IMG/VR virus record: IMGVR_UViG_3300037452_000118
Coordinates: 1 to 64,000 of that record
Length of the DNA: 64,000 bases
Direction: 5' to 3' (one strand)
From: a virus
Positions 1 to 60,238 of this stretch are shown here, one piece after another. The number at the start of each line of letters is the position of its first letter. The stretch's first letter is position 1. The position numbers and the translations under genes were made by a program. Under the pieces are notes generated by a model, which made no database searches, was not told the DNA's origin, and saw nothing but the letters and a program-made list of their open reading frames with translations.

Positions 1-1
1 A

Positions 2-25093: not shown

Positions 25094-25110
25094 CTGAGGT
25101 TTAGACAAAA

Positions 25111-29680: not shown

Positions 29681-29681
29681 A

Positions 29682-30668: not shown

Positions 30669-31666
30669 TGATGCGGCCGACCGTCGTCAAGATCGCCGCC
30701 TGGGGCGACCGCCATATTGAGTCGCTGCACCAGAACATCCTGCCTTGCCTGCTGGCGCCGCGGAACCTGCCGGCGCTGTGCGCGGCGTCGGAGACGGAGC
30801 TGATCCTCTACACCGACAGGCCGGCCAATATCGACCCTGAGATCCCGGGTTTGACGGTGACCGTCCGCGTGCTGGCGCCGCTGCCGGACGCCGGCGACCT
30901 GCCGGCGAACCGCAGGGTGCTGGCGCGGACCGACGCGGAGAGCGCCCGGCTCGCCGCGGCGAGGGACGCCGACTGGTTCGGCCTCCAGGCCGACACCTTG
31001 ATCAGCGACGCCTTTCTGCCCAGGGTCAAGGACCTGCTCGTCGCGTACCTCGCCGTGGCCGGGAGCCCGATCAGGACGGACGCCGACGCCCTGCGGGCGG
31101 CCGCCGGCGCGCGCCGCGCCTTCGACGCCGCCGACCTGCGCCGCCTCTCGATGGCCTGCCTGCACCCGGTGACGGCGGGCTACTTCGTCCGCGACCCGCC
31201 GGCCACGATCCCGGCCGACCCGCACCAGCTGCTGTTCCGCACCGCCAGCGGCTTCGCGGCGCGGACCTGGCAGTTTTGCCCGTTCGGCATCAGCCCCGAG
31301 GGTTTGCGGCCGATGATGACGTCCGACGAGGATTCGGAGCAGCCGATCGACGACGAGTCGACCATCGACTGCTACCTCGTCCAGAACCTGCCGTCGGCGC
31401 GGGTACGCTTCCACCGCCCGGCGACGGACGACTTCTACCTGACCAGCCTCGACGATCCGTCCGGCATCCCGAGGTTCGGCGAGTTCGAGATGTCGGCGGC
31501 CGGCGTCGCGGGCTCGATCCGCAAGTTCTCGCGGGACTACGGTGATGTCATCAACTACGGCGTCGCGCTTCGGCAGCGGTTCGCCTACCCGACGGAGGTC
31601 GCGCTGCCGGACAGCCTCGGCGAGGAGGAGACGCTGGAAGCGGTACGCAAGGCGCTGACGCCGTAA
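30668..31666 (+). CDS. Hypothetical protein, possible glycosyltransferase-like (paralog 1)
   Basis: N-terminal IAAWGDRHI..PCLLAPRNL..LYTD, shared with 32132 and 37724. Confidence 0.45.
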   Translation: MMRPTVVKIAAWGDRHIESLHQNILPCLLAPRNLPALCAASETELILYTDRPANIDPEIPGLTVTVRVLAPLPDAGDLPANRRVLARTDAESARLAAARDADWFGLQADTLISDAFLPRVKDLLVAYLAVAGSPIRTDADALRAAAGARRAFDAADLRRLSMACLHPVTAGYFVRDPPATIPADPHQLLFRTASGFAARTWQFCPFGISPEGLRPMMTSDEDSEQPIDDESTIDCYLVQNLPSARVRFHRPATDDFYLTSLDDPSGIPRFGEFEMSAAGVAGSIRKFSRDYGDVINYGVALRQRFAYPTEVALPDSLGEEETLEAVRKALTP

Positions 31667-32131
31667 AATTCGGTGTGGACGGCGGCCGTCAAAGAATGGA
31701 TAATTATACCTTCAGAAAGTTGTCACGGAAGCCAGCCCGCGCCCGCCAACTTCATAGGAGAGAACGATGTTCGTTGAGACTAAAAAGGACGGTGAGGCCC
31801 TACCGGTAACTCCGTCGGCGAAGGATGTTCTGGTCGCCGCCCGCGCAAAAATCGCCGAACCCGAAAATTGGTGTCAGGGCTGTCAAGGATTGGACAAGGA
31901 TGGCTGCGGCGTCAATCCGCTCGATTCCGACGCCGTGAAGCATTGTGCGCTCGGTGCGCTTTCTGCGGTCATCGGCAGCTACGTTCTTCCAACCCATCCA
32001 GCCCGCGTCGTTCTGCAACGCTGTGTCCCCGGTCCGATTGGCCCTTGGAATAATCGCCACTCACATACCGAAGTCGTCGCGGCCTTCGACGCTGCAATCG
32101 CGTGCATAAGCGGCCAAGCCCAAGGGGCAAC

Positions 32132-33052
32132 ATGAGATTCCGCTTCACCCTCGTGGTCTGGGGCGATTGGCACATCGGCCAGTTCGTCAGGCACGGCCTG
32201 CCCAGCCTGCGGGCGCCGGGCAACCTCGACGCGATCGACCACGTCGTTTCCGCGAAGACACGGCCGTCGGACCTGGAGCGCGTGCGCGCGGCGCTGGACG
32301 GCGTCAACGCCGAGATCGAAGCGCTGCTTCCCGACGACATCGGCTCCGACCAGGCGACCTGCAACACGGCGGTCTTCACGCACAACGTCGACGACCGATC
32401 CGCCGCCGCCCAGGCCGGGGAGGCCTGGGGACTGCTGTCGCCCGACATGGTGTGGGGCGAGGGAACGTGGGCGCACCACCGCGCCGCGCTGGAGGGCGGC
32501 GCGAAGGCGGTCTTCCGCCCGCTGCTGCGCGTCGACTCCGAACGCGCCGGGACGATCCGCGATTTCCGCAGACGCAGCCTCGCCGCGACCGCCTTGGAGC
32601 ACGAGCACGCGATCGCGCGGACGGACTACCGCGCCGGCGGGGAGAGGTTCTCGCCGCACGCCGAGATGATTATCTGGGAGGCGCCGGGTTGGCTGATCAA
32701 CCGGACCATCACCGCTGAAGTCCAGACCTGCATCCCGGCTGCGGTGCCGTTCAACTCGCAGGGTTTGTCGGCGCTGCCGCTGGACGGCGAGATGTGCGTG
32801 GTCCGCGACAGCGACGAGGCGATCGCGGTGGCGATGTGCCCGCCGGACAAGGACTTCGGCTGGCTGCAGGGGACGCGACCGCTCGATGTCGACCTTGTCC
32901 GCGGTTTCCTGCGGTCCTACAACTCGCCGGCATCGAGGAACATCGCGCGCCAATCCTACCACCTGCATGCGGGCGACATCGTCGATGCCGAGATATGGAA
33001 AACGGTATTAGATCGTAGATCAGACGATTTCATCACGGAGGTCTTCGCGTGA
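32132..33052 (+). CDS. Hypothetical protein, possible glycosyltransferase-like (paralog 2)
   Basis: LVVWGDWHI..PSLRAPGNL. Confidence 0.45.
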   Translation: MRFRFTLVVWGDWHIGQFVRHGLPSLRAPGNLDAIDHVVSAKTRPSDLERVRAALDGVNAEIEALLPDDIGSDQATCNTAVFTHNVDDRSAAAQAGEAWGLLSPDMVWGEGTWAHHRAALEGGAKAVFRPLLRVDSERAGTIRDFRRRSLAATALEHEHAIARTDYRAGGERFSPHAEMIIWEAPGWLINRTITAEVQTCIPAAVPFNSQGLSALPLDGEMCVVRDSDEAIAVAMCPPDKDFGWLQGTRPLDVDLVRGFLRSYNSPASRNIARQSYHLHAGDIVDAEIWKTVLDRRSDDFITEVFA

Positions 33053-34167
33053 ACCTGCACCTCGCGTCAGACCTGCTCCTGGACAAGCATCTTCCGGAGC
33101 CGGAGCCTGTCCCCGACAAGGCGGCCTACCTCCGCGAGCGCGAGGCCTGCCTGGCGCTGTCGCCGGCGGCGCGCGAGAACTGGGAGCGCTACGAGCGCTC
33201 GACGAGGCGCGAGGCGGAGCTGGACTACCTGCCGGTCCGGCTCGACGTCGAGAACGTCAGCCGCTGCAATTTTCGTTGCACCATGTGCCAGGTCAGCGAC
33301 TGGCCGAAGGGCCAGCGCGCCGCCGACATGAGCCTCGACGACTTCAAGCGGCTGCTCGACGAGCAGGTCGGAGTCGTAGAGCTGAAAATCCAGGGCTTCG
33401 GCGAGCCGACGATGGGCGCCCACTATTTTGAAATGATCCAATACGCGAGGGCGCGGCGGATATGGGTGCGCACCATCACCAACGCCTCGCGGCTGCATTT
33501 GAGAAACACGTTTCAAAAGTTGGTCGATACCGACGTGAACGAAATCCAAATATCAATAGACGGCGCAACGAAGGAAGTCTTCGAGGGCATCCGGCGCGGC
33601 TCGGTGTTCGAGCAGGTCGTGAAGAATTGCGCGCTGATCAATGGCTATGCAAAAGCCCAGGGCAAGCTACGAACCAAAATGTGGACTGTCGTGCAACAAA
33701 CCAACGCGCACCAGCTCGACGACCTGGTCGACCTCGCCTACGACGCCGGCTTTGCGCATTTGGTTTTTTCATTTGAATTGATTGATTTTGGGCAGCCGAA
33801 ATGGAAGGAGACGAACGATGCCGCCTCGGTCGCGGATCGGATAAGCCTCGCGGAATGTTGGCGGCTGCACCATCGCGCCAAGGCGCTCGGCGTCCGATTG
33901 GGTTTTTGGTTTGCCAACGAACGCTATAGCTATGAGGCGGGCAACCCGGAAAAGCTATGCTCGTGGCCGTTTCAGTCTGCCTACATCTCGTCCGACATGA
34001 AAATCGTACCGTGCTGTATAATTGGAAACCCCGAAGTTAGCAATTTCGGCGATGCCCGCAAGCTCACTGAACTTTGGAATGGCCCCGCCATCAAGGCTTT
34101 CCGTGAGGGTCATTTGACGGGGTGTGTTCCGGATATTTGCAGGTCCTGTTATAAGGGGAATCGCTGA
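33049..34167 (+). CDS. Radical SAM enzyme with SPASM/twitch domain
   Basis: CNFRCTMC, GFGEP, ISIDG, CSWPF, VPCC, CRSC. Confidence 0.9.
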   Translation: MNLHLASDLLLDKHLPEPEPVPDKAAYLREREACLALSPAARENWERYERSTRREAELDYLPVRLDVENVSRCNFRCTMCQVSDWPKGQRAADMSLDDFKRLLDEQVGVVELKIQGFGEPTMGAHYFEMIQYARARRIWVRTITNASRLHLRNTFQKLVDTDVNEIQISIDGATKEVFEGIRRGSVFEQVVKNCALINGYAKAQGKLRTKMWTVVQQTNAHQLDDLVDLAYDAGFAHLVFSFELIDFGQPKWKETNDAASVADRISLAECWRLHHRAKALGVRLGFWFANERYSYEAGNPEKLCSWPFQSAYISSDMKIVPCCIIGNPEVSNFGDARKLTELWNGPAIKAFREGHLTGCVPDICRSCYKGNR

Positions 34168-40917: not shown

Positions 40918-42090
40918 GAAAGCGCGCGCTTGCTTCTGCATAGTCGAGAGAAAACTATGATCGATCTTGAGAGCGACGATATTCCAGAGGGCTACTTTGA
41001 GTGCGAAGATGGCGATTATTGCGACCATGAAGAATATGAAATTGACGTGTGCACCGGCCGCGCCGCATGCCAGGTTTGCGGAGCCCGATGGTGGGCAACA
41101 AAAGAACAAGTCGATGCGGAGTTAGATCGCATCGCTGACTATACGAAATGGACTGATCAAGAAAATCGCCGCGAGCGTTGGCGCGAAGTTCTTTATTGGT
41201 TATGGTGGCCGTTGCGCCAGTTACGCCGCTTTTGGCCCGAACGGCATGACGATGAAATCCCGTTCTAAGGCCGGTTAACTGAGGTCTAGCATCCCGATGC
41301 CGAGGCCGCCTAAACGCGACAAAGCCTTCAAGACTGAGGTTGAATTATGCGGTGCATTTTTGGCCGCTGTTGATAATACTCAATGGACCGCATTCGCGGA
41401 AACGGCGAATTGGGACATACTTTTAGTCCGCAAGATCGACGGCTTCCAGATCGGCATCCAGGCGAAGCTGAAGCTCAACGTCGACGTTGTAAACCAGGTG
41501 ATCGAGGGCGACGATGGCTGGTTCAACACCGCCCACGCCCACCCCGACTGCTGCGCGATCCTCGTCCCCGAGGGCGACGACGGCAAGCTCGGGAAAGTGT
41601 GCGACTGCCTCGGCATCACGGTGATCAGGATGCGGTCGGCGAGCGCGGAGGGCTGGCGCGAGAGCGACTTCAAGCACAACGCCCGCTTCACGCCTGACCT
41701 GCCGCAGCCGGGGAAGTCTTGGAGTCAGGAAGCCTGGCACGACCTCGCCACGGTGAAGCGGCACAAGCTGCCGGAATACGTGCCGGACGTCGCGGCCGGC
41801 GCGCCCTCCCCGCTCCAGCTCACCGACTGGAAGATCAAGGCGATCAAGCTCGCCGTCACGCTGGAAATGAGAAAGCATCTCACCCGCCGCGACTTCGCCC
41901 ACCACGGCGTCGACCACCGCCGCTGGGTAACGCAGGGCTGGCTGAAGGTAGTCGACGGCCGCTACGTCAAGGACGCCTTCCCGAACTTCAAGAAAATGCA
42001 CCCGGTCAATTACAAGCAAATCAAAAAGGACGCGCCGAAATGGCTGCCGAAGACTCTGCTGGAGCCGGTGGCAACCCAGGCGGCGATGCT

Positions 42091-42930
42091 GTGAGCCTGA
42101 TCCGGGTTTTCCCCAGGCGCACGCGGGCGACGCCCGACGATGCCCTCGCGCGCTTCGGGCCGCCCGACCTCCTCGATGAGGCCGACGAGGTGCACGTCTC
42201 GGTCACCTTTACCTACGACAAGGCCAAGGCGGAGCAGCTCGCGGAGCAATGGCGCCACGTCGCGCCGGTCAAGATCGGCGGCGTGGCCTACGGCGACACC
42301 AGCCTGGAGTTCATCCCCGGCCGCTATCTGAGGCCCGGCTACACGATCACCTCGCGCGGCTGCCCGCGCCGCTGCTGGTTCTGCAGCGTCCCAAAGAAGT
42401 GGCCGACCGTGAACCTGCTTCCGATCTACGACGGCTGGAACGTCCTCGACGACAACCTGCTGGCCTGCGACCGCGGCCACTTCGAGAGCGTCATCGCCAT
42501 GCTCCGGCGCCAGAAACTGCCGGAGAACGGCCGCGTCGAGTTCAGCGGCGGGCTCGAGGCGCTGTCGCTGCAGGACTGGCACGTCGACATGCTGGCCAGC
42601 CTGAAGCCGCGCCCGAACTGCTTCTTCGCCTACGACCCCGGCGACGCCTTCGAGACGCTGGAGAGCGCCGCGCGCCGGATGCTCGCCGCTGGCTTCACGG
42701 CGGCGTCGCACCGGCTGCGGACCTTCGTCCTCGTCGGCTATCCCAAGGACACGCTGGCGCTCGCCGAGGCGAGGCTGCGGCAGATGACTTCCATCGGCTT
42801 TACCCCGTTCGCGATGCTGTGGAGGCCGGAGACGCCATCGCAGCAGAGATATGCGCCCGGACCGGAGTGGAAGCGGTTCCAAAAAATGTGGGCGCGACCG
42901 GCTATCATTCACGCCCAGGCGGCGGCATAG
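42091..42930 (+). CDS. Phage radical SAM protein
   Basis: TSRGCPRRCWFCSVP, LDDNLLA. Confidence 0.8.
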   Translation: MSLIRVFPRRTRATPDDALARFGPPDLLDEADEVHVSVTFTYDKAKAEQLAEQWRHVAPVKIGGVAYGDTSLEFIPGRYLRPGYTITSRGCPRRCWFCSVPKKWPTVNLLPIYDGWNVLDDNLLACDRGHFESVIAMLRRQKLPENGRVEFSGGLEALSLQDWHVDMLASLKPRPNCFFAYDPGDAFETLESAARRMLAAGFTAASHRLRTFVLVGYPKDTLALAEARLRQMTSIGFTPFAMLWRPETPSQQRYAPGPEWKRFQKMWARPAIIHAQAAA

Positions 42931-44879: not shown

Positions 44880-46577
44880 ATGATCACCGACCCCGACTCG
44901 ATCGATTGGAAGCATCCGGATTACTCCGCCATCTTCCGGGCGCGGCTCAAGGTGCTGGAGGCGATCCGCGCCGACCCTTCGGTGCTCCCCGCCTTGAAAG
45001 AGTATTACCGTGACAACCCCGCCGATTTCATCTCAGATTGGGGCTTGACCTACGAACCCCGCAACGCCGAGCGCAACCTGCCGACCTTTATCCCGTTCAT
45101 CCTTTTCCCGCGGCAGCGGGAGTGGGTAGACTGGGTAGTGGCGCATTGGCGGGCCGGAACGCCGGGACTGACGGAGAAGTCGCGCGATTGCGGCGTCTCC
45201 TGGCTGGCGATGGCCCTGTCTTGCACGCTCTGCCTTTTCCACGAAGGCATCGCCATCGGCGTCGGCAGCCGCAAGACAGAGTACGTTGACAAAATTGGCA
45301 CCTATAAGCCGCTTCTGCCGAAGGGCCGATTGTTCGTCGAGCACCTGCCGGAGGAGTTCCGCGGCGGTTGGGTGGACTGGCGCGACGCGCCGTTCATGCG
45401 GATCACGTTCCCGCAGACGCGGTCGATCATCGGCGGCGAGGGCGGCGACGACCTCGGCCGGGGAGATCGTACGTCGCTTTTCATAGTCGACGAGTTCGCA
45501 TATTTCGAAAGGCCGGAGCTGACGGAGATGTCGCTGTCGCAGACGACGAACTGCCGCATCGACGTTTCGTCCGTCGCTGGCATGAACAATAAGTTCGCCG
45601 AGAAACGGCATAGCGGTCGCGTCGACGTCTTCATTTTCGATTGGAAAGAAGATTTTCGGAAAGACCAGGAATGGTACGACAACCTCGGCAAGCCGGAATC
45701 TGAGGGCGGCAAGGGCCTCGATCCCGTCACCATCGCGCAGGAGGTCGACCGCGACTACTCCGCCTCGGTCGAGGGCATCGTCATCCCCGGGGCGTGGGTG
45801 CGCTCGGCGATCGACGCTCATCTCAAACTAAAGGTCGAGATCACCGGCCGGCGCGGCATGTCGCTCGACGTCGCCGACGAGGGCGCCGACAAGAACGCGG
45901 CGTGCCGGTCGCAGGGCATCCTCATTGAGGGCAGCGAGGAGTGGAGCGGCAAGGGCGCCGACATCTTCGACACCGTGCAGCGGGCCTTCAACATCTGCGA
46001 CCTCTACGGTATCCCTGACTTCGACTACGATTCCGACGGGCTAGGCGCTGGCGTCCGCGGCGATGCCCGGATCATCAACGAGACGCGCCGCGCGAACGGC
46101 GCAAAGCCGATCCCGGCGCTCGGCTTCCGCAGCTCCGAGGCCGTAGTCAACCCGGACGGCATCGTCGAGGGCACCATCGGACGCGACGACGACAAGGGGC
46201 GCCTCAACAAGGATTACTTCGCTAACCGAAAAGCGCAGGGCTGGTGGTCGCTGCGGCGGCGCTTCCAGAAGATCCACCGCTGGGTAGTCGACGGCGTCAA
46301 ATGTTCGCCAGACGAGATCGTCGCGATCAGCTCGAAGTGTCCCAACCATCTCAAGCTCGTCGCCGAACTCAGCCAGCCGACCTACGCCACGAACGGCGTC
46401 GGCAAGATCGTCATCAACAAGAAGCCGGGCGGCATGAAGAGCCCGAACATGGCCGACGCCTGCATGATCCGCTTCGCCCCGAAGGACCAGCAGCCCGCCG
46501 AGTACACCGCGGAGCTGACCCAGCTGATCCGGCAGTACGGCGCCCAGCGCCAGGCCCGCCGGAACCGCGGCCGTTGA
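44880..46577 (+). CDS. terL: Terminase large subunit
   Basis: LFPRQ, EKSRDCGVSW (Walker A variant), FIVDEFA (Walker B), LDVADEGAD nuclease motif, SPNMADA. Confidence 0.92.
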   Translation: MITDPDSIDWKHPDYSAIFRARLKVLEAIRADPSVLPALKEYYRDNPADFISDWGLTYEPRNAERNLPTFIPFILFPRQREWVDWVVAHWRAGTPGLTEKSRDCGVSWLAMALSCTLCLFHEGIAIGVGSRKTEYVDKIGTYKPLLPKGRLFVEHLPEEFRGGWVDWRDAPFMRITFPQTRSIIGGEGGDDLGRGDRTSLFIVDEFAYFERPELTEMSLSQTTNCRIDVSSVAGMNNKFAEKRHSGRVDVFIFDWKEDFRKDQEWYDNLGKPESEGGKGLDPVTIAQEVDRDYSASVEGIVIPGAWVRSAIDAHLKLKVEITGRRGMSLDVADEGADKNAACRSQGILIEGSEEWSGKGADIFDTVQRAFNICDLYGIPDFDYDSDGLGAGVRGDARIINETRRANGAKPIPALGFRSSEAVVNPDGIVEGTIGRDDDKGRLNKDYFANRKAQGWWSLRRRFQKIHRWVVDGVKCSPDEIVAISSKCPNHLKLVAELSQPTYATNGVGKIVINKKPGGMKSPNMADACMIRFAPKDQQPAEYTAELTQLIRQYGAQRQARRNRGR

Positions 46578-48553: not shown

Positions 48554-51500
48554 ATGACCAAGAAAGCCGGCCACGGCGGCCCGAGGCCCGGCGCCGGCCG
48601 CAAGCCGCTGACCCCCGAGGAGCAGGAGGCCAAGCGGGTTCGGCGGAACGAGGCCGCCCGGAAACGCCGCGCCGACGCCAAGGCGAAGGCCGCCGGCGCG
48701 GCCGTAGCCGAGGCCCCCGCCACCGTCCCCGCCGCGCCGAAGGGCCAGCAGGCGGGCGCCTGGGGCGACGCGCGGGCCATCGAGGCGCTGATGGAGCGGA
48801 TGGGCCAGCGGAGGAAGCGGAGCCGGGCGCCGGAGTTCAACCCGTTCCAGGTCGCCAAGCACCCGCCGCGGGCCACCCCGCCGAAGAAGCTCCAGATGGC
48901 GATGGACGACGGCACGATGGGCTGGGCGGCGAGCGCCTGGCTGGGCGGGTTCGGCGGCGTCTTCGGGGCGGTGGGCGCGGAGGGGCTGCAGTTCCTCGGC
49001 TACCCCTACCTGTCGGAGCTGGCGCAGCGGACGGAGTACCGCGTCATCTCGGAGACCATCGCCGACGACGCCACGCGGAAGTGGATCGACTTCGACGTCA
49101 CCGGCACCATCAAGGACAAGGAGAAGGGCCAGGACGACGAGGAGACCGAGGAGAAGGAGGAGGCCGGCGAGCCGGTCGACCCCGACGAGGAGAAGCAGAA
49201 GCGCGAGGACCGCGTGAAGTCCTCGGGCAAGATGGAGAAGGTGAAGCAGCTCAAGGACGAGCTGGCGCGGCTCGAGCTGCGGGACTGCATGTACCGGATC
49301 TGCCGCGACGACGGCTTCTTCGGGCGATCGCACCTCTACCTCGACTTCGGCGACGACCTCGACAAGACCGAGGCGATGAACGAGCTGAAGACGCCGATCG
49401 GCGACGGCCGCGACAAGCTCAGCCAGGGCAAGGTGGGACCGCAGAAGCCGCTGGCGGCGGTGCGCCCGGTCGAGCCGGTGTGGTGCTACCCGACGACCTA
49501 CAACGCCATCAACCCGCTGCGCGACGACTGGTACAACCCGCAGGTCTGGTACGTGATGGGCCGCGAGATCCACCGCAGCCGCCTGCCGACCTTCGTCGGC
49601 CACCCGGTCCCCGACCTCCTGAAGCCTGCGTACTCGTTCGGCGGCCTGTCGCTGTCGCAGATAGCGAAACCCTACGTCGACATCTGGCTGCAGACCCGGG
49701 ACAGCGTTGGGGAGCTGATCCACGCCTTCTCGACGATGGTGCTGCTGACCGACGTGCAGACCAACCTGGCGCCGGGGGCGACCGGCGGTCCGGGCACGCT
49801 GATGGCGCGCGTCGCCGCGTTCAACGACTTCCGCGACAACATGAACACCTTCGTGCTGAACAAAAATACGGAGGATTTCAAAAATGTGTCGGTCCCGCTC
49901 GGCGGCCTGCACGAGCTCCAGGCGCAGTCGCAGGAGCATGTTGCCTCGGCTGTACGCATCCCGCTCATCAAGTTCACGGGGCTGCAGCCTGCGGGACTCA
50001 ATGCGTCCGCCGAGGGTGAGGTGCGAGCATATTACGACACGATCGCGGCCTACCAGAACCGCTTCCTACGGCCCAACCTGACCCGCGTCCTCAACTTCGT
50101 GCAGCTCTCGCTATGGGGCGAGATTGACCCAGAAATTGTCTTCGACTTCGAGGGCCTCTGGGAGATGAGCGAGAAGGAGAAGGCCGACCTCCAGAAGGCC
50201 GAGGCGGAGCGCAACCAGACCTACGTCGACATGGGCGTCATCGCGCCGGAGGAGGTCCGCGGCGTGGTCATCGACGACCCCGAGCTGCCGTTCGGCGACC
50301 TCGACCCCGACGACGTGCCGGAGCTCAAGGAGGAGGAAGAGGGCGGCCTCATCCCGCCCGGCGGCGGGCGCGCCGAGGAGGCCATCATCGGCGAGCCGGG
50401 CGCGGAGCCCGGCGGTCCGGGCCGGCCGGCGGGCGCCCCGGCGCCGAAGCCCGGCGGCGGCCACGGCGACCCGGCGTTCCAGGAAGACGGGGGAGGCGCG
50501 GCGGCGGGGGCGCGCAACGTGGTCCCTTTCAGGGCGCGCGGCGCCGCTGACGAGCTGGACCCGCTCTTCGCCAGCCTCGCCAACGACGCCGCGATCGAGT
50601 GGAACGAGAGCAAGCACCCCCGCGACCCCAAGGGCGAGTTCACGGCTGGCGCGTCGGCTGGCGCGGCGTCCCATGCCGCGGAGACCGGCGCCGGCGCCCC
50701 GAAGGCCAAGGGCTACGGCTGGCACGGCGGCCCCCAGCAGCACTTCGTCATGCCGCAGTTCGGGCTGTGGGGGCCGCCGGGCAGTTTCGGCGGCGGGCAC
50801 TGGAGGCCGGAGCCGCGGCCGCCGCTCGACCCCTCGACGCTCAAGAAGGTCGGCCCGCAGATGGGGTCGAACCCCGGCGGCGTGTTCGAGGACGAGAAGG
50901 GGCGCAAGTTCTACGTCAAGGAGGGCCGGTCCAAGGACCACGTCCGCAACGAGCTCACCGCGGCCGACCTCTACGACCTCGCCGGCGCCCCGACGCTGCG
51001 CTACCGCGACGTCGCCGGCGGCGCGCACATAGCGTCGGAGATGGAGAAGCTCAGCAAGAAGAACGCGTCGGAGCTGTCGGCGGAGGAGGTGCGCAAGGCC
51101 AAGCGCGACTTCGCCGCGCACGCCTGGACGGCGAACTACGACGCGGTGGGCACCGGCGGCGACAACCTTGTCGCGGCGGGCCCGGACGTCTTCACGGTCG
51201 ACCTCGGCGGCGCGCTTGAATACCGGGCGCGCGGCAAGCCCAAGGGCGACGCGTTCGGGAACCAAGTCACAGAGATGGACACCATGCGCGATCCGAGCAT
51301 CGCGCCGGACGCCTCCGCGATCTTCGGCGACATCACCCCCGCCGAGTTCAGGGAATCGGCCGCCCGCGTGACGCGGATCAGCGACGGCGCCATCCGCGCC
51401 GCGGTCAAAGCGCGCGGCGGGTCGGACGCCTTGGCCGACAAGATGATCGCGCGGCGCGACGACATAGCGAAGCGGGCCAAGACTTTCGGCGCCGAGGGCG

Positions 51501-54500
51501 ATCCGAAGAAGAAGACCTCGACCGTGATCTTCCCCGCCGGCGACGCGCTACCGGTGAAGACGCTCAACGGGGTGGCGTTCGAGCCGTGGACGCCGCCGGC
51601 CGACGGCGACTGGAACGAGGTCGACGGCCAGATGGACATCGAGGACGAGGCGCCGCTGCCGGAGGGCGCGCAGGGCAAGCAGCTGGCCTCGGGACTGATC
51701 ATCAGGGAGAAGGACGGCCGCGTCTGGCTCGCCCGGCCGAAGGGTGGCTTCGGCGGATACGACAGCACATTTCCAAAGGGCCGGGTCGAGCACGCGCTGT
51801 CGATGCAGGCCAACGCGATCAAGGAGGCCTTCGAGGAGACCGGGCTCAAGGGGCGGATCACCGGCATGGCCGGCGACCGCGTCGGCGACGTCACGCTGAC
51901 CCGGTACTATCTCGCGGAGCGCGAGGGCGGCGATCCCAGCCGGCCCGGAGAGGAGAGCGAGGGCGTGGTGCTGGCGCCGGCGGACAAGCTCGACGGCTTC
52001 CTCAACCGCGACCGCGACCGCAAGCTGGCCAAGGAGATCGCCCAGGACGAGGAGCCCGGCGCGCCGCGGACGCTCTACGTCAACCGCCCGCTGCTCAACG
52101 CCGGCGACCTGGCGGCGTGGGCGCGGGAGCACGGCGTCAAGAAGCTGCTGCCGGCCGACGACATGCACGTTACCGTGGCGTTCAGCAAGGCGCCGCTGGC
52201 GTGGGCCGCTGCTGGGGACGGCGCGGCGAAGGTCGTCGCCGAGGGTGGCGAGCGGTCGGTCGAGCGCCTCGGCAACGAGGGCGCCGTAGTGCTGCGCTTC
52301 GAGTGCCCCGCGCTGGACCGGGACTGGCGGCGGTTCGTCGACGCCGGCGCCTCGTGGGACCATCCAGGCTACAAGCCGCACGTCACCTTCACGATGGGCG
52401 ACGTCGACGTCGACGCGGTCGAGCCCTACGACGGGCCGCTGGAGTTCGGGCCGGAAGAGTGGGACGAGATCGGCAACCGGCCGGCCGACTGGGCCGCCAA
52501 GGCGAAGGCCTCGCTGGTCGCCGCGGACGCCTTCGAGGAGGGCAAGCACCCCCGCGGGCAGCCGGAGAACAAGGGCCAGTTCGGCCCCGGAGGCGGCGGG
52601 GGCGGCCAGGCGAAGCGGACCTCGGCCGGCAGGCCGACGCCCCGGCGCGGGAGCGGGGCGGTGCTGCAAAGCCGGAGCCAGGGCGCCGCCCAGGCGGCGG
52701 CCGCGGCGCCGAAGCACGACTCCGCGAAGCTGCTGGAGAAGTCGGTCTCCGACGCGCTGGCGAAGGCCACGCCGAAGCAGAAAGAGCAGGCGGCCGACCA
52801 CGACCGCAAGACGAAAGCGTTCCTCGCCTCGGAGCCCGCCCGCAAGTCGATGGCGGCGTCGGTCAAGGCGTTCGCCGCCAAGCACGCCGCGGCGATGGCG
52901 AACTACCACCTCACCGACGCGATCATGCTGCCCGGGGTGCACCACGTCGTCGAGCAGGCGGTCTCTGCGATCGGGCTGGGCGCGGTGCCCGGCCTCACGC
53001 TGGGCGCCACCGCGGTCGCGGCGTACGCGGCGAACCGGCTGATCGAGACCTACCACCTCAACCTCACCGGGGCGAAGCAGCTGCTGGCGCCGGTGGTGCG
53101 CGGGATGGTCGACGTGCTCGGCAACGTCAAGGAGACCTCGGCGCGGATCGCCGACCTGGAGCGGCGCGGGCTCGTCGGGGCGGAGGACGCGAAACGCGAC
53201 GATACCGTGCTCGACGCGCTGATCGTACTGCTGCTGGAGGTCGAGAAGCTCGGCGAGGAGGAGCCGCAGGCCGAGGACGAGGCGCCGTTTGAGGAGTCGA
53301 AGCATCCCCGCGACGCGCACGGCGAGTTCACCAGCAAAGGCGGCGAGGGCGGGGGCGGGCAGTACATCGGCACTGGCGGCGAGGAGGATCCCGCGGAGCA
53401 GATCGCCGCGGCCAACGAGCCGCCGGCCGGCGAGGGCACGAAGCCGGTATCTACCAACGACATCGTGAAGAAGGCGAACGCGAACGCCGAGGCCGCCGGC
53501 CAGGGCGGCCTCGACGACGTGGACCCGCTGACGAGCGCGAAGCACAAGTACAACGCCGCGATCCAGCTCGGCGCCAACTACGCTACGGCGACGTGGGCGA
53601 CGACGCACGAGGAGGACGCGGCGCTCAAGCAGGTCTACAGCTCGACCGAAGACGCATGGAAAGCGCTCGCCGAGGCTGAGAAAAATAAGGCCGGCGACCC
53701 GCAACAATCGTTCAAGGCCGAGATCGCGAAGATCGACAACGCTGAGGGCGAGTACGCCGACCTCGATACCAACCTGAAATCTGCCGAAGCGAAGGTAAAG
53801 GCCGGCATGGCGCACGAGATGGCGCCGGATGATGTTGTCGATGCTCTCTCCGAGGTCGAATACAACGCGATCCAGAAGAAGTACGGCAACATTACCGGCG
53901 CCTACGCAGAGATGAAGAAGGCCGATGAGGAAAAACCTCAAGGAGCGCTGGAGTGGGCCAAAAAACTGCTTGAGACCGGGCTTGTCGGGCCAGAGGCGGA
54001 GAAGATTCTCGCCCACCTTGATACGATCGGATACGGCGACACCGACAAACTCAATGCTTTGATCGCGCAGGCTGCCGGGAAAGAAGCGCCCACTCCACAA
54101 GCCAAGGAGGGCAAAACCAAGTTCGGCGGCCTGTGGAAGGTGACCGGCCTCGGCGAGAAGGCGGACATCCAGCTCAACGCCAAGACGGTGCTCCTCAAAC
54201 CGACCAACGCCGGACAGAGCTACCGGCAGATGATGACGTTCCTGATCAACAACGCCGCGGCCGGCGACCTCGACGCCGACATCGTCGGCAAATTGAAAGT
54301 TAAACTGGTCGAGGCGCTCTACAAGGCCAGCGACAAGGCGACTCAGCTCGGCAAGGAGGGCGACGCCAAGAAGATCAACCTCGCGCTGAACAAGATCAGC
54401 ATGAAGGAGCCGGCCATCCTCGCCGCCGGGATGGGGGCGTGGGAGGCCAGCAAGAACGGCCAGCCGCCGCCGGCCTACAAGCCCCCGCAGCCCGAGCCCG

Positions 54501-55777
54501 ATCCGGCGCCGCAATCCAAGCCGACCGTGAACGACAAGGCGATGGCCTCCTTCAAGAAAGCTGCCGCCGCGATGTGGAAGAAGGCCGGTTACGGCCCCGA
54601 CAGCAAGGGCGATTCGGTCACCGCGTCCGAGAAGGCCAAGCTGGCCGCGCAGCACGGCATCTCGACGCAAGACCTCATCGACAATCTCACCTTGGCGGAG
54701 AACAAGTCGCTGAAGGATTTTTACGGCTCGATCGCCAACGCGATGAATTGGGCCGCGAACAAGGTCGAACCCGACGCCAACGAGGCGAAGGAGGTCGCCA
54801 CGATCGCGCCGGCGACGTCCGCGTCGGAGCCACCGTCATCGTTGAAGGCGACCTATGCCGAGATCACCAAGGCGAAGAAGACCGCTCCGCTCCAACTGCA
54901 GTACGTGCCGAACGCGCCGCAGACCGATGAAGCGCAGAAGCTCGTCGACGAGTTCAACGCGAAGTGGTCCGGCAAGGAGGTCGACGACGACATCGCGCTG
55001 AAGAAGATCGCCGACTTCAAGGCGATGCAGCAGAAGATGGTGCCGCTGATGAACGCGGCGCAGAAGGCGGCGGCGGAGCAGAACGCCAAGATCGCCGCGG
55101 AGGCGAAAAAATCGCAGGCGGAGCAAGTCGCGAAGTCGGCGAAGGAGACCGCGAAGCACGCGGCGCAGCTCGAGGAGTACAAGAAGGAACTCGGCGTCGG
55201 CGACGCGGAGGCCGAGGCCTTCGAGGGCCTGGTCGACATGCTCGGCGGCGACAAGCAGAAGGTGCTGGCCAGTTTCAAGAGCTACGCTACCTCCGCAGGC
55301 CACGGCCTGACCGGCTTCGAGGGCAAGCTGATCGCGGGCTACAAGTCGGACAGCAGCGTCGTCAACGCGGAGATGCGGAAGCCTATGGCGTCGTGGAAGT
55401 CGCCGAAGTTCATGTACGCCAAGATATTGAACAAGGCGCTGTCGAAGCTGCCCGGCTACAGCGGCGTCACGATCAGGAACACGCCGCTGAGCAGCGAGCT
55501 GCAGATGCGCTACCAGCCCGGCAACGTCGTCATGGAGCACGGCTTCACCGGGACCTCGAAGCAGAAGCCGAACGGGGTGTTCAGCGGCAACACGAGGTTC
55601 TACATCAAGGGGATCGGCAAGCGGGCGGCCGACATCTCGGAGATGTACGGCTTCCAGGGCGAGGGCGAGGTGCTCTACCAAGCGCACACCGCCTTCCACG
55701 TCGACAAGGTCGAGGGCCAGGTAGGCAGCGACGGCGAGGCGAGCTACAAGGTCTACATGACCGAGCTGGAGGTTTGA
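48554..55777 (+). CDS. Portal (DUF1073-like) polyprotein with kinase-like, Nudix, Acb1-like 2H phosphoesterase and ADP-ribosyltransferase domains
   Basis: Portal FLGYPYLSELAQRTEYR..IPLIKFTG.QPAGLNASAEGE; YVK..NE..WTANYD..DNL..VDLGG; KGR..AIKEAFEETG; HVT..HVT; R..FTGTS..EGEVL. Confidence 0.85.
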   Translation: MTKKAGHGGPRPGAGRKPLTPEEQEAKRVRRNEAARKRRADAKAKAAGAAVAEAPATVPAAPKGQQAGAWGDARAIEALMERMGQRRKRSRAPEFNPFQVAKHPPRATPPKKLQMAMDDGTMGWAASAWLGGFGGVFGAVGAEGLQFLGYPYLSELAQRTEYRVISETIADDATRKWIDFDVTGTIKDKEKGQDDEETEEKEEAGEPVDPDEEKQKREDRVKSSGKMEKVKQLKDELARLELRDCMYRICRDDGFFGRSHLYLDFGDDLDKTEAMNELKTPIGDGRDKLSQGKVGPQKPLAAVRPVEPVWCYPTTYNAINPLRDDWYNPQVWYVMGREIHRSRLPTFVGHPVPDLLKPAYSFGGLSLSQIAKPYVDIWLQTRDSVGELIHAFSTMVLLTDVQTNLAPGATGGPGTLMARVAAFNDFRDNMNTFVLNKNTEDFKNVSVPLGGLHELQAQSQEHVASAVRIPLIKFTGLQPAGLNASAEGEVRAYYDTIAAYQNRFLRPNLTRVLNFVQLSLWGEIDPEIVFDFEGLWEMSEKEKADLQKAEAERNQTYVDMGVIAPEEVRGVVIDDPELPFGDLDPDDVPELKEEEEGGLIPPGGGRAEEAIIGEPGAEPGGPGRPAGAPAPKPGGGHGDPAFQEDGGGAAAGARNVVPFRARGAADELDPLFASLANDAAIEWNESKHPRDPKGEFTAGASAGAASHAAETGAGAPKAKGYGWHGGPQQHFVMPQFGLWGPPGSFGGGHWRPEPRPPLDPSTLKKVGPQMGSNPGGVFEDEKGRKFYVKEGRSKDHVRNELTAADLYDLAGAPTLRYRDVAGGAHIASEMEKLSKKNASELSAEEVRKAKRDFAAHAWTANYDAVGTGGDNLVAAGPDVFTVDLGGALEYRARGKPKGDAFGNQVTEMDTMRDPSIAPDASAIFGDITPAEFRESAARVTRISDGAIRAAVKARGGSDALADKMIARRDDIAKRAKTFGAEGDPKKKTSTVIFPAGDALPVKTLNGVAFEPWTPPADGDWNEVDGQMDIEDEAPLPEGAQGKQLASGLIIREKDGRVWLARPKGGFGGYDSTFPKGRVEHALSMQANAIKEAFEETGLKGRITGMAGDRVGDVTLTRYYLAEREGGDPSRPGEESEGVVLAPADKLDGFLNRDRDRKLAKEIAQDEEPGAPRTLYVNRPLLNAGDLAAWAREHGVKKLLPADDMHVTVAFSKAPLAWAAAGDGAAKVVAEGGERSVERLGNEGAVVLRFECPALDRDWRRFVDAGASWDHPGYKPHVTFTMGDVDVDAVEPYDGPLEFGPEEWDEIGNRPADWAAKAKASLVAADAFEEGKHPRGQPENKGQFGPGGGGGGQAKRTSAGRPTPRRGSGAVLQSRSQGAAQAAAAAPKHDSAKLLEKSVSDALAKATPKQKEQAADHDRKTKAFLASEPARKSMAASVKAFAAKHAAAMANYHLTDAIMLPGVHHVVEQAVSAIGLGAVPGLTLGATAVAAYAANRLIETYHLNLTGAKQLLAPVVRGMVDVLGNVKETSARIADLERRGLVGAEDAKRDDTVLDALIVLLLEVEKLGEEEPQAEDEAPFEESKHPRDAHGEFTSKGGEGGGGQYIGTGGEEDPAEQIAAANEPPAGEGTKPVSTNDIVKKANANAEAAGQGGLDDVDPLTSAKHKYNAAIQLGANYATATWATTHEEDAALKQVYSSTEDAWKALAEAEKNKAGDPQQSFKAEIAKIDNAEGEYADLDTNLKSAEAKVKAGMAHEMAPDDVVDALSEVEYNAIQKKYGNITGAYAEMKKADEEKPQGALEWAKKLLETGLVGPEAEKILAHLDTIGYGDTDKLNALIAQAAGKEAPTPQAKEGKTKFGGLWKVTGLGEKADIQLNAKTVLLKPTNAGQSYRQMMTFLINNAAAGDLDADIVGKLKVKLVEALYKASDKATQLGKEGDAKKINLALNKISMKEPAILAAGMGAWEASKNGQPPPAYKPPQPEPDPAPQSKPTVNDKAMASFKKAAAAMWKKAGYGPDSKGDSVTASEKAKLAAQHGISTQDLIDNLTLAENKSLKDFYGSIANAMNWAANKVEPDANEAKEVATIAPATSASEPPSSLKATYAEITKAKKTAPLQLQYVPNAPQTDEAQKLVDEFNAKWSGKEVDDDIALKKIADFKAMQQKMVPLMNAAQKAAAEQNAKIAAEAKKSQAEQVAKSAKETAKHAAQLEEYKKELGVGDAEAEAFEGLVDMLGGDKQKVLASFKSYATSAGHGLTGFEGKLIAGYKSDSSVVNAEMRKPMASWKSPKFMYAKILNKALSKLPGYSGVTIRNTPLSSELQMRYQPGNVVMEHGFTGTSKQKPNGVFSGNTRFYIKGIGKRAADISEMYGFQGEGEVLYQAHTAFHVDKVEGQVGSDGEASYKVYMTELEV

Positions 55778-59854: not shown

Positions 59855-60238
59855 TCAGTATTCGCTCGGCAGAAGGATCACGTTGTCGGTGCAGTACAGC
59901 TTGACCTCCGGCAGCGGGAAGTCAGTGAACTCGATGTGCTTGCTGGCGACGACGTTTCCGTTGCCGTCGTCGCAGCTCAGCGTCGCCCCGTTTCCAGTCT
60001 TGCCAATCGCCGCATCGTCGCGAAGGAGCGTCCAGACCTGGAACTCCTCGGCGGCGACCTTCTTGTCGAACTTCTGCGCCAGCGCGATCTCGTCCAGGAG
60101 CCAATAGGCGCCGCCGGCATCGGCGACGTGCTTCGCCCCGTCGGTGAACGTGATCTTCGGCACCAAGCCGTGCTGGTACCATTGCTCGCTGCCGGTGAAC
60201 TGCCGCAACTCCGCTTCGTTCAAGGTCATCGTCGTCAT
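59855..60238 (-). CDS. DUF6876-like phage/mobile-element protein
   Basis: FTGSEQWYQH, FTDGAK, AYWLLDEI, IEFTDFPL, ILLPSEY. Confidence 0.65.
   Translation of the reverse strand: MTTMTLNEAELRQFTGSEQWYQHGLVPKITFTDGAKHVADAGGAYWLLDEIALAQKFDKKVAAEEFQVWTLLRDDAAIGKTGNGATLSCDDGNGNVVASKHIEFTDFPLPEVKLYCTDNVILLPSEY

What the first reader, a model, noticed from the sequence alone, without database searches (positions are those of the whole stretch)
48554..55777. 2407-aa portal polyprotein carrying a set of counter-defence enzymes
Seen: after the portal region come a kinase-like domain (~50830-51480), a Nudix box (~51690-52030), a 2H phosphoesterase with two HVT motifs (~52070-52480), long helical regions and a C-terminal R-S-E ADP-ribosyltransferase (~55300-55777). 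Knowledge: Acb1 is a 2H enzyme that degrades CBASS cyclic nucleotides, and ART or kinase fusions to head proteins are known from MuF and polyvalent proteins. Inference: the enzymes are packaged through the portal and delivered at infection. This many domains on the portal itself is unusual.
Basis: partly seen in the sequence, partly recalled or inferred. Interest (0 to 1): 0.75.

Follow-up and report, generated by a model that had tools for sequence, protein, structure and literature searches.

The report
Giant phage portal carrying effector enzymes
A soil phage encodes a 2407-residue portal protein whose tail end strings together a kinase, a Nudix hydrolase, an Acb1-type signal-degrading nuclease and an ADP-ribosyltransferase, most likely so that they sit inside the virus head and reach the host with the DNA.

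Summary
Window 48554-55777 (+) is one uninterrupted 2407-codon gene. It carries a Phage_portal_3 domain, an atypical protein-kinase-like domain, a Nudix domain, an Acb1-family 2H phosphoesterase with both H-V-T motifs, and a C-terminal Tre1/VIP2-like ADP-ribosyltransferase. Two runs each hold one contig spanning the whole gene without a difference, so it is not a mis-assembly.

At least 156 portal proteins of 1323-4213 aa in metagenomes share the theme, mostly as portal-kinase-(Nudix)-ART. Two papers (PMC5512222, PMC9503650) already predicted that portal fusions to 2H, Nudix and ART domains are packaged and injected. The cyanophage Pam3 portal (PDB 8hds) carries a homologous 2H domain.

Three things look new.
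- The kinase domain has no Pfam model but matches 3980 cluster representatives.
- It is usually paired with the ART.
- A conserved junction motif, [FW]xExxHPRx3-6GxF followed by poly-Gly, occurs three times here, at module borders only.

Packaging inside the head is well supported by inference. Release by cleavage and delivery at infection are untested.

I call it a new variant of a known kind, with interest 0.6.

The parts
48554..55777 (+). Whole gene: 2407-aa portal-polyvalent protein (P0001)
   Evidence: contigs spanning it in runs X1 and X2
48554..48853 (+). Basic, Ala-rich N-terminal extension (res 1-100); the start MTxxxHGGxRxGAGRK is shared with relatives
   Evidence: consensus of A3
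48875..50341 (+). Portal domain (res 108-596)
   Evidence: Pfam PF06381 E 2e-67; phrog_146 E 5e-96; solved portals 9b41, 8fvh and 8hds
50594..50653 (+). Junction motif 1: EWNESKHPRDPKGEF, followed by a Gly/Ala/Ser linker
50816..51508 (+). Atypical protein-kinase-like domain (res 755-985); G-loop GSNPGG, K789, E800, D863, N871, D883
51680..51991 (+). Nudix domain (res 1043-1146); Nudix box at 51779-51844 reads GRVEHALSMQANAIKEAFEETG
52067..52474 (+). Acb1-family 2H phosphoesterase (res 1172-1307); H-V-T at 52166-52174 and 52379-52387
52526..52594 (+). Junction motif 2: AFEEGKHPRGQPENKGQF, followed by poly-Gly
52676..53278 (+). Module 3 (res 1375-1575): helical, fold unknown, with a conserved hydrophobic stretch at res 1465-1493 (52946-53032)
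   Evidence: the AF2 model is of low confidence
53282..53341 (+). Junction motif 3: PFEESKHPRDAHGEF, followed by a Gly-rich linker
53351..54703 (+). Ala/Lys/Gly/Glu-rich spacer (res 1600-2050), poorly conserved
54701..55303 (+). Conserved pre-ART region (res 2050-2250), shared with 75-120 of 234 family proteins
55301..55774 (+). R-S-E-type ADP-ribosyltransferase (res 2250-2407); R2308, G-T-S 2333-2335, E2370 and E2372

Best explanation
This is the portal protein of a roughly 129-kb contractile-tailed soil phage. A train of effector modules has been added to its C-terminal end, making it a portal-anchored 'polyvalent protein'.

Shown here:
- The portal domain is followed by four blocks. Block 1 is an atypical kinase, a Nudix hydrolase and an Acb1-type 2H phosphoesterase. 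Block 2 is a helical module with a hydrophobic stretch. Block 3 is a long low-complexity spacer. Block 4 is an R-S-E ADP-ribosyltransferase.
- A conserved peptide, [FW]xExxHPRx3-6GxF followed by a Gly-rich linker, lies at three of the borders: after the portal, after block 1 and after block 2.

Inferred:
- The C-terminal end of a portal points into the head. Twelve copies of the train (about 1,800 residues each) would therefore be built into every prohead without any separate targeting signal.
- The head maturation protease of the phage, encoded 16 kb downstream and itself fused to a second Nudix domain, or another activity, cuts at or near the junction peptides.
- The freed modules leave through the portal and tail with the DNA and act in the first minutes of infection.
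- The 2H domain would destroy cyclic oligonucleotide alarm signals (CBASS and similar), as T4 Acb1 does.
- The Nudix domain would hydrolyse ADP-ribose-type or dinucleotide compounds.
- The kinase and the ART would covalently modify host proteins, for take-over or to block defence proteins.
For: Identity of the parts:.

It is a real phage with a contractile-tail gene set. The genome is a single 128,813-bp contig whose ends overlap. It encodes MuF, a major head protein, a tape measure, a baseplate hub and wedge, tail fibre proteins and an endolysin.

The train is an addition to an ordinary portal. A relative with 48% identity has a 546-aa portal-only gene.

The family is large. There are 156 portal proteins of 1323-4213 aa. 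In the 235 proteins gathered carry the portal, 123 carry portal plus kinase and 117 carry portal plus ART. The commonest order is portal-kinase-(Nudix)-(helical)-ART. This set was selected by those two searches and is not a random sample.

The same effector modules hang on other head anchors:
- MuF in P0141.
- An 'HK97 portal', a 'head morphogenesis domain' protein, and ART, Nudix and 2H proteins of uncultured phages.
- In Pseudomonas phage Jeremy and Morganella phage Mecenats66 the kinase is the C-terminal part of a roughly 1,200-aa protein, with a Nudix gene two genes downstream. In Mecenats66 this lies just upstream of terminase and portal.

The junction peptide is selected as a peptide:
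- Three copies occur in this genome, all in this ORF and all at module borders.
- There are 309 copies in 182 of the 235 proteins, with E at -3 in 96%, followed by Gly-rich sequence.
- The three DNA copies share only about 15 identical bases and use different codons.
- 25 of the 55 non-portal relatives that have the motif carry it within their first 100 residues.

A head maturation protease is present, at genome 71798-73912 (phrog_2229 E 1e-81, DUF2213), fused to a Nudix domain.

Published support, from passages only:
- Portal and MuF fusions of 2H, Nudix and ART domains are predicted to be packaged and injected (PMC5512222, PMC9503650).
- A 2811-aa polyvalent protein was found by proteomics in phi24B virions (bioRxiv 10.64898/2026.04.10.717836).
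Against: - No result here shows cleavage, presence in virions or ejection. A portal stays in the capsid, so delivery needs a cut that is only inferred.
- The junction peptide has no known function. It is absent from the homologous proteins of the isolated phages Jeremy and Mecenats66.
- No peptidase domain lies inside the polypeptide, although self-processing peptidases are a stated theme of polyvalent proteins (abstract of PMC5512222).
- The ART has G-T-S in place of S-T-S and scores below the Pfam cut-off, so its activity may be altered.
- The Nudix box has Lys for the usual Arg and Leu for the first Glu (box consensus recalled).
- Substrates of the kinase, Nudix and ART domains cannot be read from sequence. 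The nearest kinase folds include protein, lipid and sugar kinases.
- Twelve trains would add about 2.3 MDa of protein to the head (my arithmetic). That is large but untested.
- The host is unknown.
Confidence: 0.6

Rival explanations
1. The train is never released. It stays tethered to the portal and works in the producing cell late in infection, next to the packaging vertex. It would protect against defences that fire on late structural proteins or on their signals. Alternatively it is simply internal ballast or scaffold.
For: - A portal is a fixed part of the capsid.
- No internal peptidase was found.
- PMC9503650 itself raises the alternative that head-linked ARTs counter immune processes aimed at the portal or terminase (passage).
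- From recall only: several defence systems are triggered by portal, terminase or capsid proteins.
Against: - The same modules occur on MuF and as free-standing proteins with the junction peptide near the N-terminus. This fits cargo better than a portal-specific guard.
- Conserved junction peptides with Gly linkers and a head protease in the genome suggest processing.
- Acb1-type enzymes are useful from the start of infection (recalled).
Confidence: 0.2
2. The modules are delivered, but mainly for host take-over rather than counter-defence. In this reading they shut off or redirect host transcription and translation, as T4 Alt and the T7 kinase do. The Nudix domain serves the ART, for example by trimming ADP-ribose marks or clearing ADP-ribose.
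For: - The conserved core of the family is kinase plus ART: 172 of 221 kinase-bearing proteins also have the ART.
- The 2H domain is rare, in 9 of 235.
- Alt and the T7 kinase are the precedents named in PMC5512222.
- The ART is closest to 6drh_B/6dre_B. I recall these as Tre1, which modifies a cell-division protein.
Against: - This particular protein has added an Acb1-family domain (101.7 bits), whose only characterised role is anti-CBASS (family name in Pfam; the role is recalled from the Acb1 literature).
- The two readings do not exclude each other.
Confidence: 0.3
3. The junction peptides are not cleavage or docking signals. They are conserved borders that allow cassette exchange by recombination, as at the borders of polymorphic toxins.
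For: - Module content varies greatly between relatives while the junction is constant.
- PMC5512222 notes cassette-like variation for kinase-bearing polyvalent proteins.
Against: The three copies share only about 15 identical bases and differ in codon choice. The constraint is therefore on the peptide rather than the DNA.
Confidence: 0.15
4. The long ORF is an artefact: a chimeric assembly, or a missed stop or frameshift in a GC-rich contig.
For: High-GC DNA gives long chance ORFs. An example is the 1040-aa antisense ORF at 51548-54670.
Against: - GC3 is 0.73-1.00 in one frame over all 24 blocks.
- Real domains are found along the whole length.
- Identical contigs occur in two runs, fragments in two more studies, and no indels were listed.
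- Relatives of 2792, 2274 and 2079 aa were found, and P0001 plus two other proteins share the full module order.
Confidence: 0.02

Closest known systems
Polyvalent proteins of phages and conjugative elements (Iyer et al. 2017, PMC5512222; extended in PMC9503650)
   Same: Several unrelated effector domains sit in one polypeptide that is linked to a virion head domain. Portal fusions to 2H, PBECR, InPase, Nudix and ART domains are named explicitly, with the prediction of packaging and injection (passages).
   Different: - The 2017 text says that Alt/VIP2-type R-S-E ARTs are not in genuine polyvalent proteins. Here an R-S-E ART is the commonest partner.
- The kinase described there lacks the whole C-terminal subdomain and is placed in Verrucomicrobia-Chlamydia and Bacteroidetes. 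This one keeps a helical C-lobe, so whether it is the same family is open.
- No zincin-like processing peptidase is present.
- The junction peptide did not appear in the sections and passages I read.
- I could not see the figures or supplements, which may list this architecture.
Portal protein gp3 of cyanophage Pam3 (PDB 8hds)
   Same: A Phage_portal_3-type portal with a homologous 2H domain at its C-terminus: chain residues 467-619 against residues 1167-1318 here, E 6e-23.
   Different: It is 621 aa with a single added domain. [quoted passage not shown]
T4 Acb1 (PDB 7t26; Pfam PF23474)
   Same: The same family by HMM (E 4e-29). Both H-x-T/S motifs align.
   Different: T4 Acb1 is a free protein of 144 residues in the solved chain. 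Here the domain is embedded in a portal fusion. Substrate range is unknown.
T4 Alt and MuF-fused ARTs and toxins (PMC5512222, PMC9503650; Jamet et al. 2017, PMC5576092, search listing and abstract only)
   Same: An R-S-E ART that travels in the head and is injected. The head anchor provides the delivery.
   Different: The anchor is the portal itself, not a capsid-targeting peptide or MuF. This phage also has a separate plain MuF (genome 66460-67371).
6drh_B/6dre_B 'PAAR repeat-containing protein' (I recall this as Tre1 of Serratia proteamaculans), then Lmo0066, Vis and VIP2
   Same: The best solved relatives of the ART domain. The family profile gives E 1e-25 to 1e-14. Arg and Glu-x-Glu are conserved.
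   Different: The delivery vehicle differs (type VI secretion or binary toxin). This subclade has G-T-S for S-T-S. The target is unknown.
CtkA, HipA, CotH, PI4KII-alpha, MavQ and Fam20: atypical protein-kinase-like enzymes
   Same: Same fold, at Z 14.5-10.8 over about 190-220 aligned residues. The Lys, Glu, Asp...Asn and Asp-x-Gly positions are conserved. Distant multi-copy relatives touch the Pfam models HipA_C, HipA_2 and APH.
   Different: Identity is 8-14%. There is no Pfam hit for this protein. The substrate class cannot be told.
phi24B gp47, a 2811-aa virion-borne polyvalent protein (bioRxiv 10.64898/2026.04.10.717836, passages)
   Same: A very large multi-domain protein detected in virions and proposed to be ejected.
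   Different: It is not a portal fusion. Its domains differ (LPD domains and a MuF-C metallopeptidase).

Membership tests
Phage_portal_3 (PF06381) portal proteins | Match to the family HMM above the curated cut-off | tested here: met
   227.6 bits against 33.8, residues 152-553; phrog_146 E 5e-96
Phage_portal_3 (PF06381) portal proteins | Sequence similarity to portals with solved structures | tested here: met
   8hds E 2e-34, 9b41 E 1e-28, 8fvh E 1e-27
Phage_portal_3 (PF06381) portal proteins | Dodecameric ring at one capsid vertex | not testable with these tools
   Needs virions or recombinant protein
Acb1 / 2H phosphoesterase (PF23474) | Match to the family HMM above the curated cut-off | tested here: met
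   101.7 bits against 27, residues 1172-1307
Acb1 / 2H phosphoesterase (PF23474) | Two H-x-T/S catalytic motifs | tested here: met
   HVT at 1205 and 1276, aligned to the motifs of 7t26 and of 8hds
Acb1 / 2H phosphoesterase (PF23474) | Cleavage of cyclic di- or trinucleotide signals | not testable with these tools
   Needs an enzyme assay
Nudix hydrolases (PF00293) | Match to the family HMM above the curated cut-off | tested here: met
   37 bits against 21.1, residues 1043-1146; Ap4A hydrolase 3i7u E 1e-3
Nudix hydrolases (PF00293) | Nudix box GX5EX7REUXEEXGU (consensus recalled) | tested here: inconclusive
   The box reads GRVEHALSMQANAIKEAFEETG. The E-x-x-E-E-x-G core is kept, Lys replaces Arg and Leu replaces the first Glu
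R-S-E ADP-ribosyltransferases (PF03496 / PF01129) | Match to the family HMM above the curated cut-off | tested here: inconclusive
   19.3 bits (whole protein) and 22.7 bits (domain alone) against 23.4. Relatives score above it, for example P0005 at 53.7 bits
R-S-E ADP-ribosyltransferases (PF03496 / PF01129) | Homology to solved R-S-E ARTs | tested here: met
   Single sequence against 6dre_B, E 1e-6. Profile of 22 sequences against 6drh_B E 1e-25, Vis 5e-20, VIP2 1e-14
R-S-E ADP-ribosyltransferases (PF03496 / PF01129) | Catalytic Arg and Glu-x-Glu | tested here: met
   R2308 and E2372 (columns R259, E323) are invariant in A2 and E2370 (column E321) is nearly invariant
R-S-E ADP-ribosyltransferases (PF03496 / PF01129) | S-T-S motif | tested here: inconclusive
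   Reads G-T-S in P0001, P0002 and P0003. More distant relatives have S-T-S
Protein-kinase-like superfamily (atypical: CtkA / HipA / CotH / PI4KII-like) | Two-lobed kinase fold | tested here: met
   AF2 pLDDT 89.3. VIA-align: CtkA Z 14.5, rmsd 3.8, 204 residues aligned; CotH 13.0; PI4KII-alpha 12.5; HipA 10.8. 71 Foldseek matches at E <= 1e-3; all of those listed are kinases or phosphotransferases
Protein-kinase-like superfamily (atypical: CtkA / HipA / CotH / PI4KII-like) | ATP-binding Lys with helix-C Glu, catalytic Asp...Asn, metal-binding Asp-x-Gly | tested here: met
   K789, E800, D863, N871 and D883 are invariant in 23 of 23 sequences. The assignment of roles is by position in the fold and is inferred
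HipA family (PF07804 / PF20613) | Match to the family HMM | tested here: not met
   No Pfam match for this domain even at E 10. Only multi-copy distant relatives P0127 and P0141 touch HipA_C, HipA_2 or APH. I do not file it as HipA
Polyvalent proteins (sense of PMC5512222) | Two or more domains of disparate activity in one polypeptide of a phage or mobile element, linked to virion or transfer machinery | tested here: met
   Four enzyme domains on a portal, in a phage genome
Polyvalent proteins (sense of PMC5512222) | Internal processing peptidase (a frequent theme, not a requirement) | tested here: not met
   No peptidase family was found in Pfam, PHROGs or NCBIfam. A separate head protease exists

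The most novel reading that the evidence does not exclude
The conserved peptide [FW]xExxHPRx3-6GxF plus poly-Gly may be an undescribed cargo-handling signal of tailed phages, acting as a cleavage site and/or a head-docking tag. It would turn the portal into a loading dock for strings of effectors, and it would also mark free-standing effectors for packaging. The unannotated CtkA/CotH-like kinase paired with an R-S-E ART would then be one of the commonest injected effector pairs in nature. It matches 3980 cluster representatives, yet occurs in only 20 of 50,697 isolated-phage records.
Probability: 0.3. Interest if true: 0.8.

Novelty: new variant of a known kind. Interest (0 to 1): 0.6.

Why it matters
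Injected phage proteins decide the first minutes of infection, before any phage gene is read. Few are known, and almost all come from T4, P1, N4 and T7. This gene shows in one reading frame how a phage can load four enzymes on the one protein that is certain to be in every head.

It also points to a large uncultured family built the same way. Three testable items come out of it:
- a kinase family with no database model;
- its regular pairing with an ART;
- a short junction peptide that could explain how such trains are cut or docked.

If the 2H domain is active, it would be an anti-CBASS enzyme that is already present when the DNA enters. That changes how escape from signal-based defence is pictured. 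The idea of portal-borne effectors has been in print since 2017 but has not been tested at the bench in any paper I found.

Tried and rejected
Kinase domain:
- Pfam at E <= 10 gave only a chance-level Transglut_core3 hit.
- phmmer against PDB sequences gave nothing.
- I first suspected the 'InPase' domain that PMC5512222 reports on a portal next to Nudix. I rejected this because InPase is an OB fold with four acidic residues and the model is a kinase fold.

Module 3 (res 1340-1600):
- No Pfam hit and no usable ESM Atlas hit.
- The AF2 model from 9 sequences has pLDDT 47.7, too poor for a fold search. Its fold stays unknown.

Spacer 1600-2060: no usable ESM Atlas hit. It was not modelled.

Host and names:
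- The scan of genome contigs found only 2 distant portal matches (24-25% identity) in Bacillota MAGs.
- The listing of cluster members gave no names or accessions for 9 NCBI-held relatives.
- The host stays unknown. The nearest isolate portals are from phages of Acetobacter, Helicobacter, Klebsiella, Ralstonia and Burkholderia, at 36-41% identity.

Expression: no RNA holder was listed.

Literature on the junction peptide:
- 0 hits for 'motif', 'linker', 'cleavage' or 'HPR' in PMC5576092.
- A library search for six spellings of the peptide returned 136 papers. All 15 listed were unrelated, so this was a weak search.
- The search for HipA-like + polyvalent + phage + kinase returned 0 papers.
- The search on kinase domain, ART, portal, Nudix, prophage and effector returned only the two Aravind-group papers and unrelated work.

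Other:
- The DUF2213 literature search gave nothing useful on function.
- Complex prediction was not used, because the report claims no specific protein-protein contact.
- Joints and loose ends are short (sides of about 20 bases) or come from low-depth contigs of other organisms. I give them no weight.
Full report
**The gene is real**

Window 48554-55777 (+) is an ATG-to-TGA frame of 2407 codons. An AAGGA lies 8-12 nt upstream of the start. The start codon overlaps the stop of the preceding ORF as ATGA, and the next ORF starts 4 nt after the stop.

GC at third codon positions is 0.73-1.00 in this frame in every one of 24 blocks of 100 codons. There is therefore no hidden frameshift or non-coding stretch. 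The 1040-aa ORF on the opposite strand is the usual high-GC shadow.

Two soil-metagenome runs (X1, X2) each hold a single contig covering all 7,224 bases with no difference and no gap. They may be the samples the window was assembled from, so they are not fully independent. Two further runs from other studies (X3, X4) hold near-identical fragments over 22 and 29 of 30 bins. No insertions or deletions were listed. The identical protein is recorded on 5 contigs.

**The setting is a phage**

The window is the first half of a single 128,813-bp contig whose ends overlap. The second half carries MuF, a Nudix-fused head maturation protease, a minor and a major head protein, a tape measure, a baseplate hub and wedge, tail fibre proteins and an endolysin. 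This is the gene set of a contractile-tailed phage. A weak terminase-large-subunit match lies at 44880-46577. The host is unknown.

**The domains**

- Portal. Pfam Phage_portal_3 covers residues 152-553 (E 2e-67) and a PHROG portal family covers 108-596. Solved portals of Pam3, E217 and a 765-aa 'gp19' match at E 1e-27 to 2e-34.
- Nudix. Residues 1043-1146, above the Pfam cut-off. The box keeps the Glu-x-x-Glu-Glu core but has Lys for Arg and Leu for the first Glu (consensus recalled).
- 2H. Pfam Acb1 at 1172-1307, 101.7 bits against 27. The two H-V-T motifs at 1205 and 1276 align with the two catalytic motifs of T4 Acb1 (7t26, E 1.5e-6). They align even better with the C-terminal 150 residues of the Pam3 portal (8hds, E 6e-23).
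- ART. Pfam falls just short of its cut-off. The sequence matches 6dre_B at E 1e-6. A profile of 22 family members matches 6drh_B at E 1e-25, followed by Lmo0066, Vis, VIP2, XopAI and the binary-toxin enzymes. Arg2308 and Glu2370-x-Glu2372 are in place. The S-T-S motif reads G-T-S in this protein and its two nearest relatives, but S-T-S in more distant ones.

**The kinase-like domain**

This was the one call with no database support.

An exhaustive HMMER search found 3980 cluster representatives at E <= 1e-3, of which 2766 are at E <= 1e-10. An alignment of the domain with 22 short relatives has an invariant Lys in Y-V-K, Glu in N-E, and Asp...Asn in D-A-x-G-x-x-x-D-N. It also has an invariant Asp in D-x-G-G and a G-S-N-P-G-G loop. 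These map to K789, E800, D863, N871 and D883.

The AF2 model is confident (pLDDT 89.3, pTM 0.86). Foldseek gives 71 matches at E <= 1e-3, and every one listed is a kinase or phosphotransferase.

An all-against-representatives structural search gave these top matches:

| Match | Z |
|---|---|
| CtkA (rmsd 3.8, 204 residues) | 14.5 |
| CotH | 13.0 |
| PI4KII-alpha | 12.5 |
| MavQ | 12.1 |
| Fam20 | 11.6 |
| HipA | 10.8 |

Ordinary protein kinases score near 8. Distant relatives with several copies of the domain touch the Pfam models HipA_C, HipA_2 and APH.

It is therefore an atypical protein-kinase-like enzyme with an intact catalytic set. Whether it phosphorylates a protein, a lipid or a small molecule cannot be told from this.

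**The rest of the protein**

Residues 1-100 are basic and shared with relatives. Residues 1375-1575 form a conserved helical module with a hydrophobic stretch at 1465-1493. Its model is too poor to search with. Residues 1600-2050 are Ala/Lys/Gly/Glu-rich and poorly conserved. Residues 2050-2250 are a conserved lead-in to the ART.

**A junction peptide**

Three near-identical peptides stand at the module borders:
- EWNESKHPRDPKGEF at 688;
- AFEEGKHPRGQPENKGQF at 1332;
- PFEESKHPRDAHGEF at 1584.

Each is followed by Gly-rich sequence. They are the only three matches to HPR-x(2-9)-G-x-F in all six frames of the genome.

In the 235 family proteins collected, 309 copies occur in 182 proteins. Glu at -3 is present in 96%, Phe is the commonest residue at -5 (46%), and poly-Gly follows. 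130 of 137 portal-bearing proteins have the motif, with the first copy at a median position of 642, just after the portal domain. Among 98 non-portal relatives 55 have it, and 25 of those carry it within their first 100 residues. Some of these may be truncated gene calls.

The three DNA copies share only about 15 identical bases and use different codons. The constraint is therefore on the peptide. The homologous proteins of the isolated phages Jeremy and Mecenats66 lack it. I found no description of it (both weak searches).

**How common is the arrangement**

The word-indexed search returned 156 portal proteins of 1323-4213 aa. Pfam marks on them include ART, Nudix, Acb1, Hint/intein, ART-PolyVal, Zeta toxin and a topoisomerase I domain.

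In my local domain mapping of the 235 proteins (a selected set, not a random one):
- 137 have the portal and 221 the kinase;
- 123 have portal plus kinase, and 117 have portal plus ART;
- 172 have kinase plus ART, and 83 have kinase plus Nudix;
- 9 have the 2H domain and 9 have module 3;
- only 3, this protein included, have the full order portal-kinase-Nudix-2H-module 3-spacer-ART.

A relative with a 48%-identical portal has a plain 546-aa portal gene. The train is therefore an accretion.

Among 50,697 isolated-phage records none matches more than 20% of the protein. Only 20 carry the kinase domain, annotated as hypothetical or subsumed under 'ADP-ribosyltransferase'. In Jeremy and Mecenats66 the kinase ends a roughly 1,200-aa protein and a Nudix gene follows two genes later. 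The kinase-Nudix link thus holds in unfused form too.

In the library of predicted viral structures the domain turns up in proteins labelled HK97 portal, head morphogenesis (MuF), ADP-ribosyltransferase, Nudix and 2'-5' RNA ligase superfamily.

**What is already known**

PMC5512222 (abstract, sections 9, 10 and 23, and passages) defines polyvalent proteins. It names portal or MuF fusions of PBECR, 2H and InPase domains, and proposes that the 2H domains degrade nucleotide signals of defence systems.

PMC9503650 (passages) adds Nudix and ART fusions to MuF, portal and the capsid-processing peptidase. It also raises the alternative that such ARTs protect the packaging apparatus.

The E217 paper (passages) shows a C-terminal portal barrel projecting into the head. 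Only residues 97-528 of 765 were modelled. A preprint on phi24B reports a 2811-aa polyvalent protein in virions.

None of these tests a portal-borne enzyme. Their figures and supplements, which I could not see, may list this very architecture or the kinase.

**Mechanism, with what is shown and what is inferred**

Shown: the domain identities and their order, the conserved junctions, the family-wide pattern, the alternative head anchors, and a head protease in the genome.

Inferred: the location inside the head (from the C-terminal position on a portal), release by cleavage at the junctions, exit with the DNA, and the targets.

From recall only: the T4 prohead protease cuts after Glu in a hydrophobic-x-Glu context and removes the capsid-targeting peptide of Alt and the internal proteins. 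The junction's [FW]-x-Glu resembles that, and its presence at the N-terminus of free-standing relatives would fit a targeting-and-cleavage tag. This is a lead, not a result.

The main rival is that the train stays attached and acts in the producing cell. A further rival function is host take-over rather than counter-defence. The three readings are not exclusive.

**Verdict**

This is a very large member of a known kind, with three features not found in print. Interest is 0.6.

Noticed in passing
L003:7798-9912 (= genome 71798-73912, outside the window): A second head-protein fusion: an N-terminal Nudix domain (Pfam E 1e-15) joined to a head maturation protease (DUF2213; phrog_2229 E 1e-81). 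The C-terminal part of the same PHROG profile (positions 255-426 of 428) lies in a separate ORF at L003:10219-11334, so the protease-scaffold gene looks split or interrupted.
   Followed up: partly
window 48554-55777 and L003:7798-11334: PHROG family phrog_30637 (1119 positions, unknown function) matches three genes of this phage. Profile positions 1-260 match the portal, 730-908 the protease, and 978-1117 the scaffold-like ORF. Some phages therefore seem to fuse portal, protease and scaffold in one protein.
   Followed up: no
L003:11344-12030: A homing-endonuclease-like ORF (phrog_314 E 8e-16) sits between the scaffold-like ORF and the minor head protein gene.
   Followed up: no
window 20002-34167: A cluster of sugar and cofactor enzymes in a phage: a TPP-dependent E1-like protein, a DegT aminotransferase, two NAD epimerase/reductases, a UDP-galactopyranose mutase, a B12-binding radical SAM enzyme and a SPASM radical SAM enzyme. 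A further radical-SAM-like ORF lies at 41719-42930. The cluster could serve DNA hypermodification or glycan synthesis.
   Followed up: no
window 8287-14829: Three DNA methyltransferase genes in a row (C5, N6/N4, C5), upstream of the sugar cluster.
   Followed up: no
window 4011-6611: An 866-aa primase-helicase (Toprim plus DnaB-like) with a LAGLIDADG domain at residues 693-750, possibly an intein or an inserted endonuclease.
   Followed up: no
genome ends (window 1-200 and L006 end): The first roughly 150 bases of the contig are repeated at its end. This indicates a circular assembly or terminal redundancy.
   Followed up: partly
window 55782-66459 (partly outside the window): About 10 kb of small genes on both strands, including DUF6876 at 59855-60238 on the minus strand, separates the portal gene from MuF. 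Relatives such as L010 keep the head genes contiguous.
   Followed up: partly
P0005, P0007, P0029, P0060, P0091, P0105, P0115 (relatives): Several related portal fusions carry Hint or intein-splicing domains. In P0005 these lie inside the portal domain (residues 496-817). One relative (P0075) carries a eukaryotic-type topoisomerase I domain, and one (P0115) a Zeta-toxin-like kinase.
   Followed up: no
P0127 (3416 aa, relative): One relative repeats the kinase-ART pair five times in a single polypeptide.
   Followed up: no
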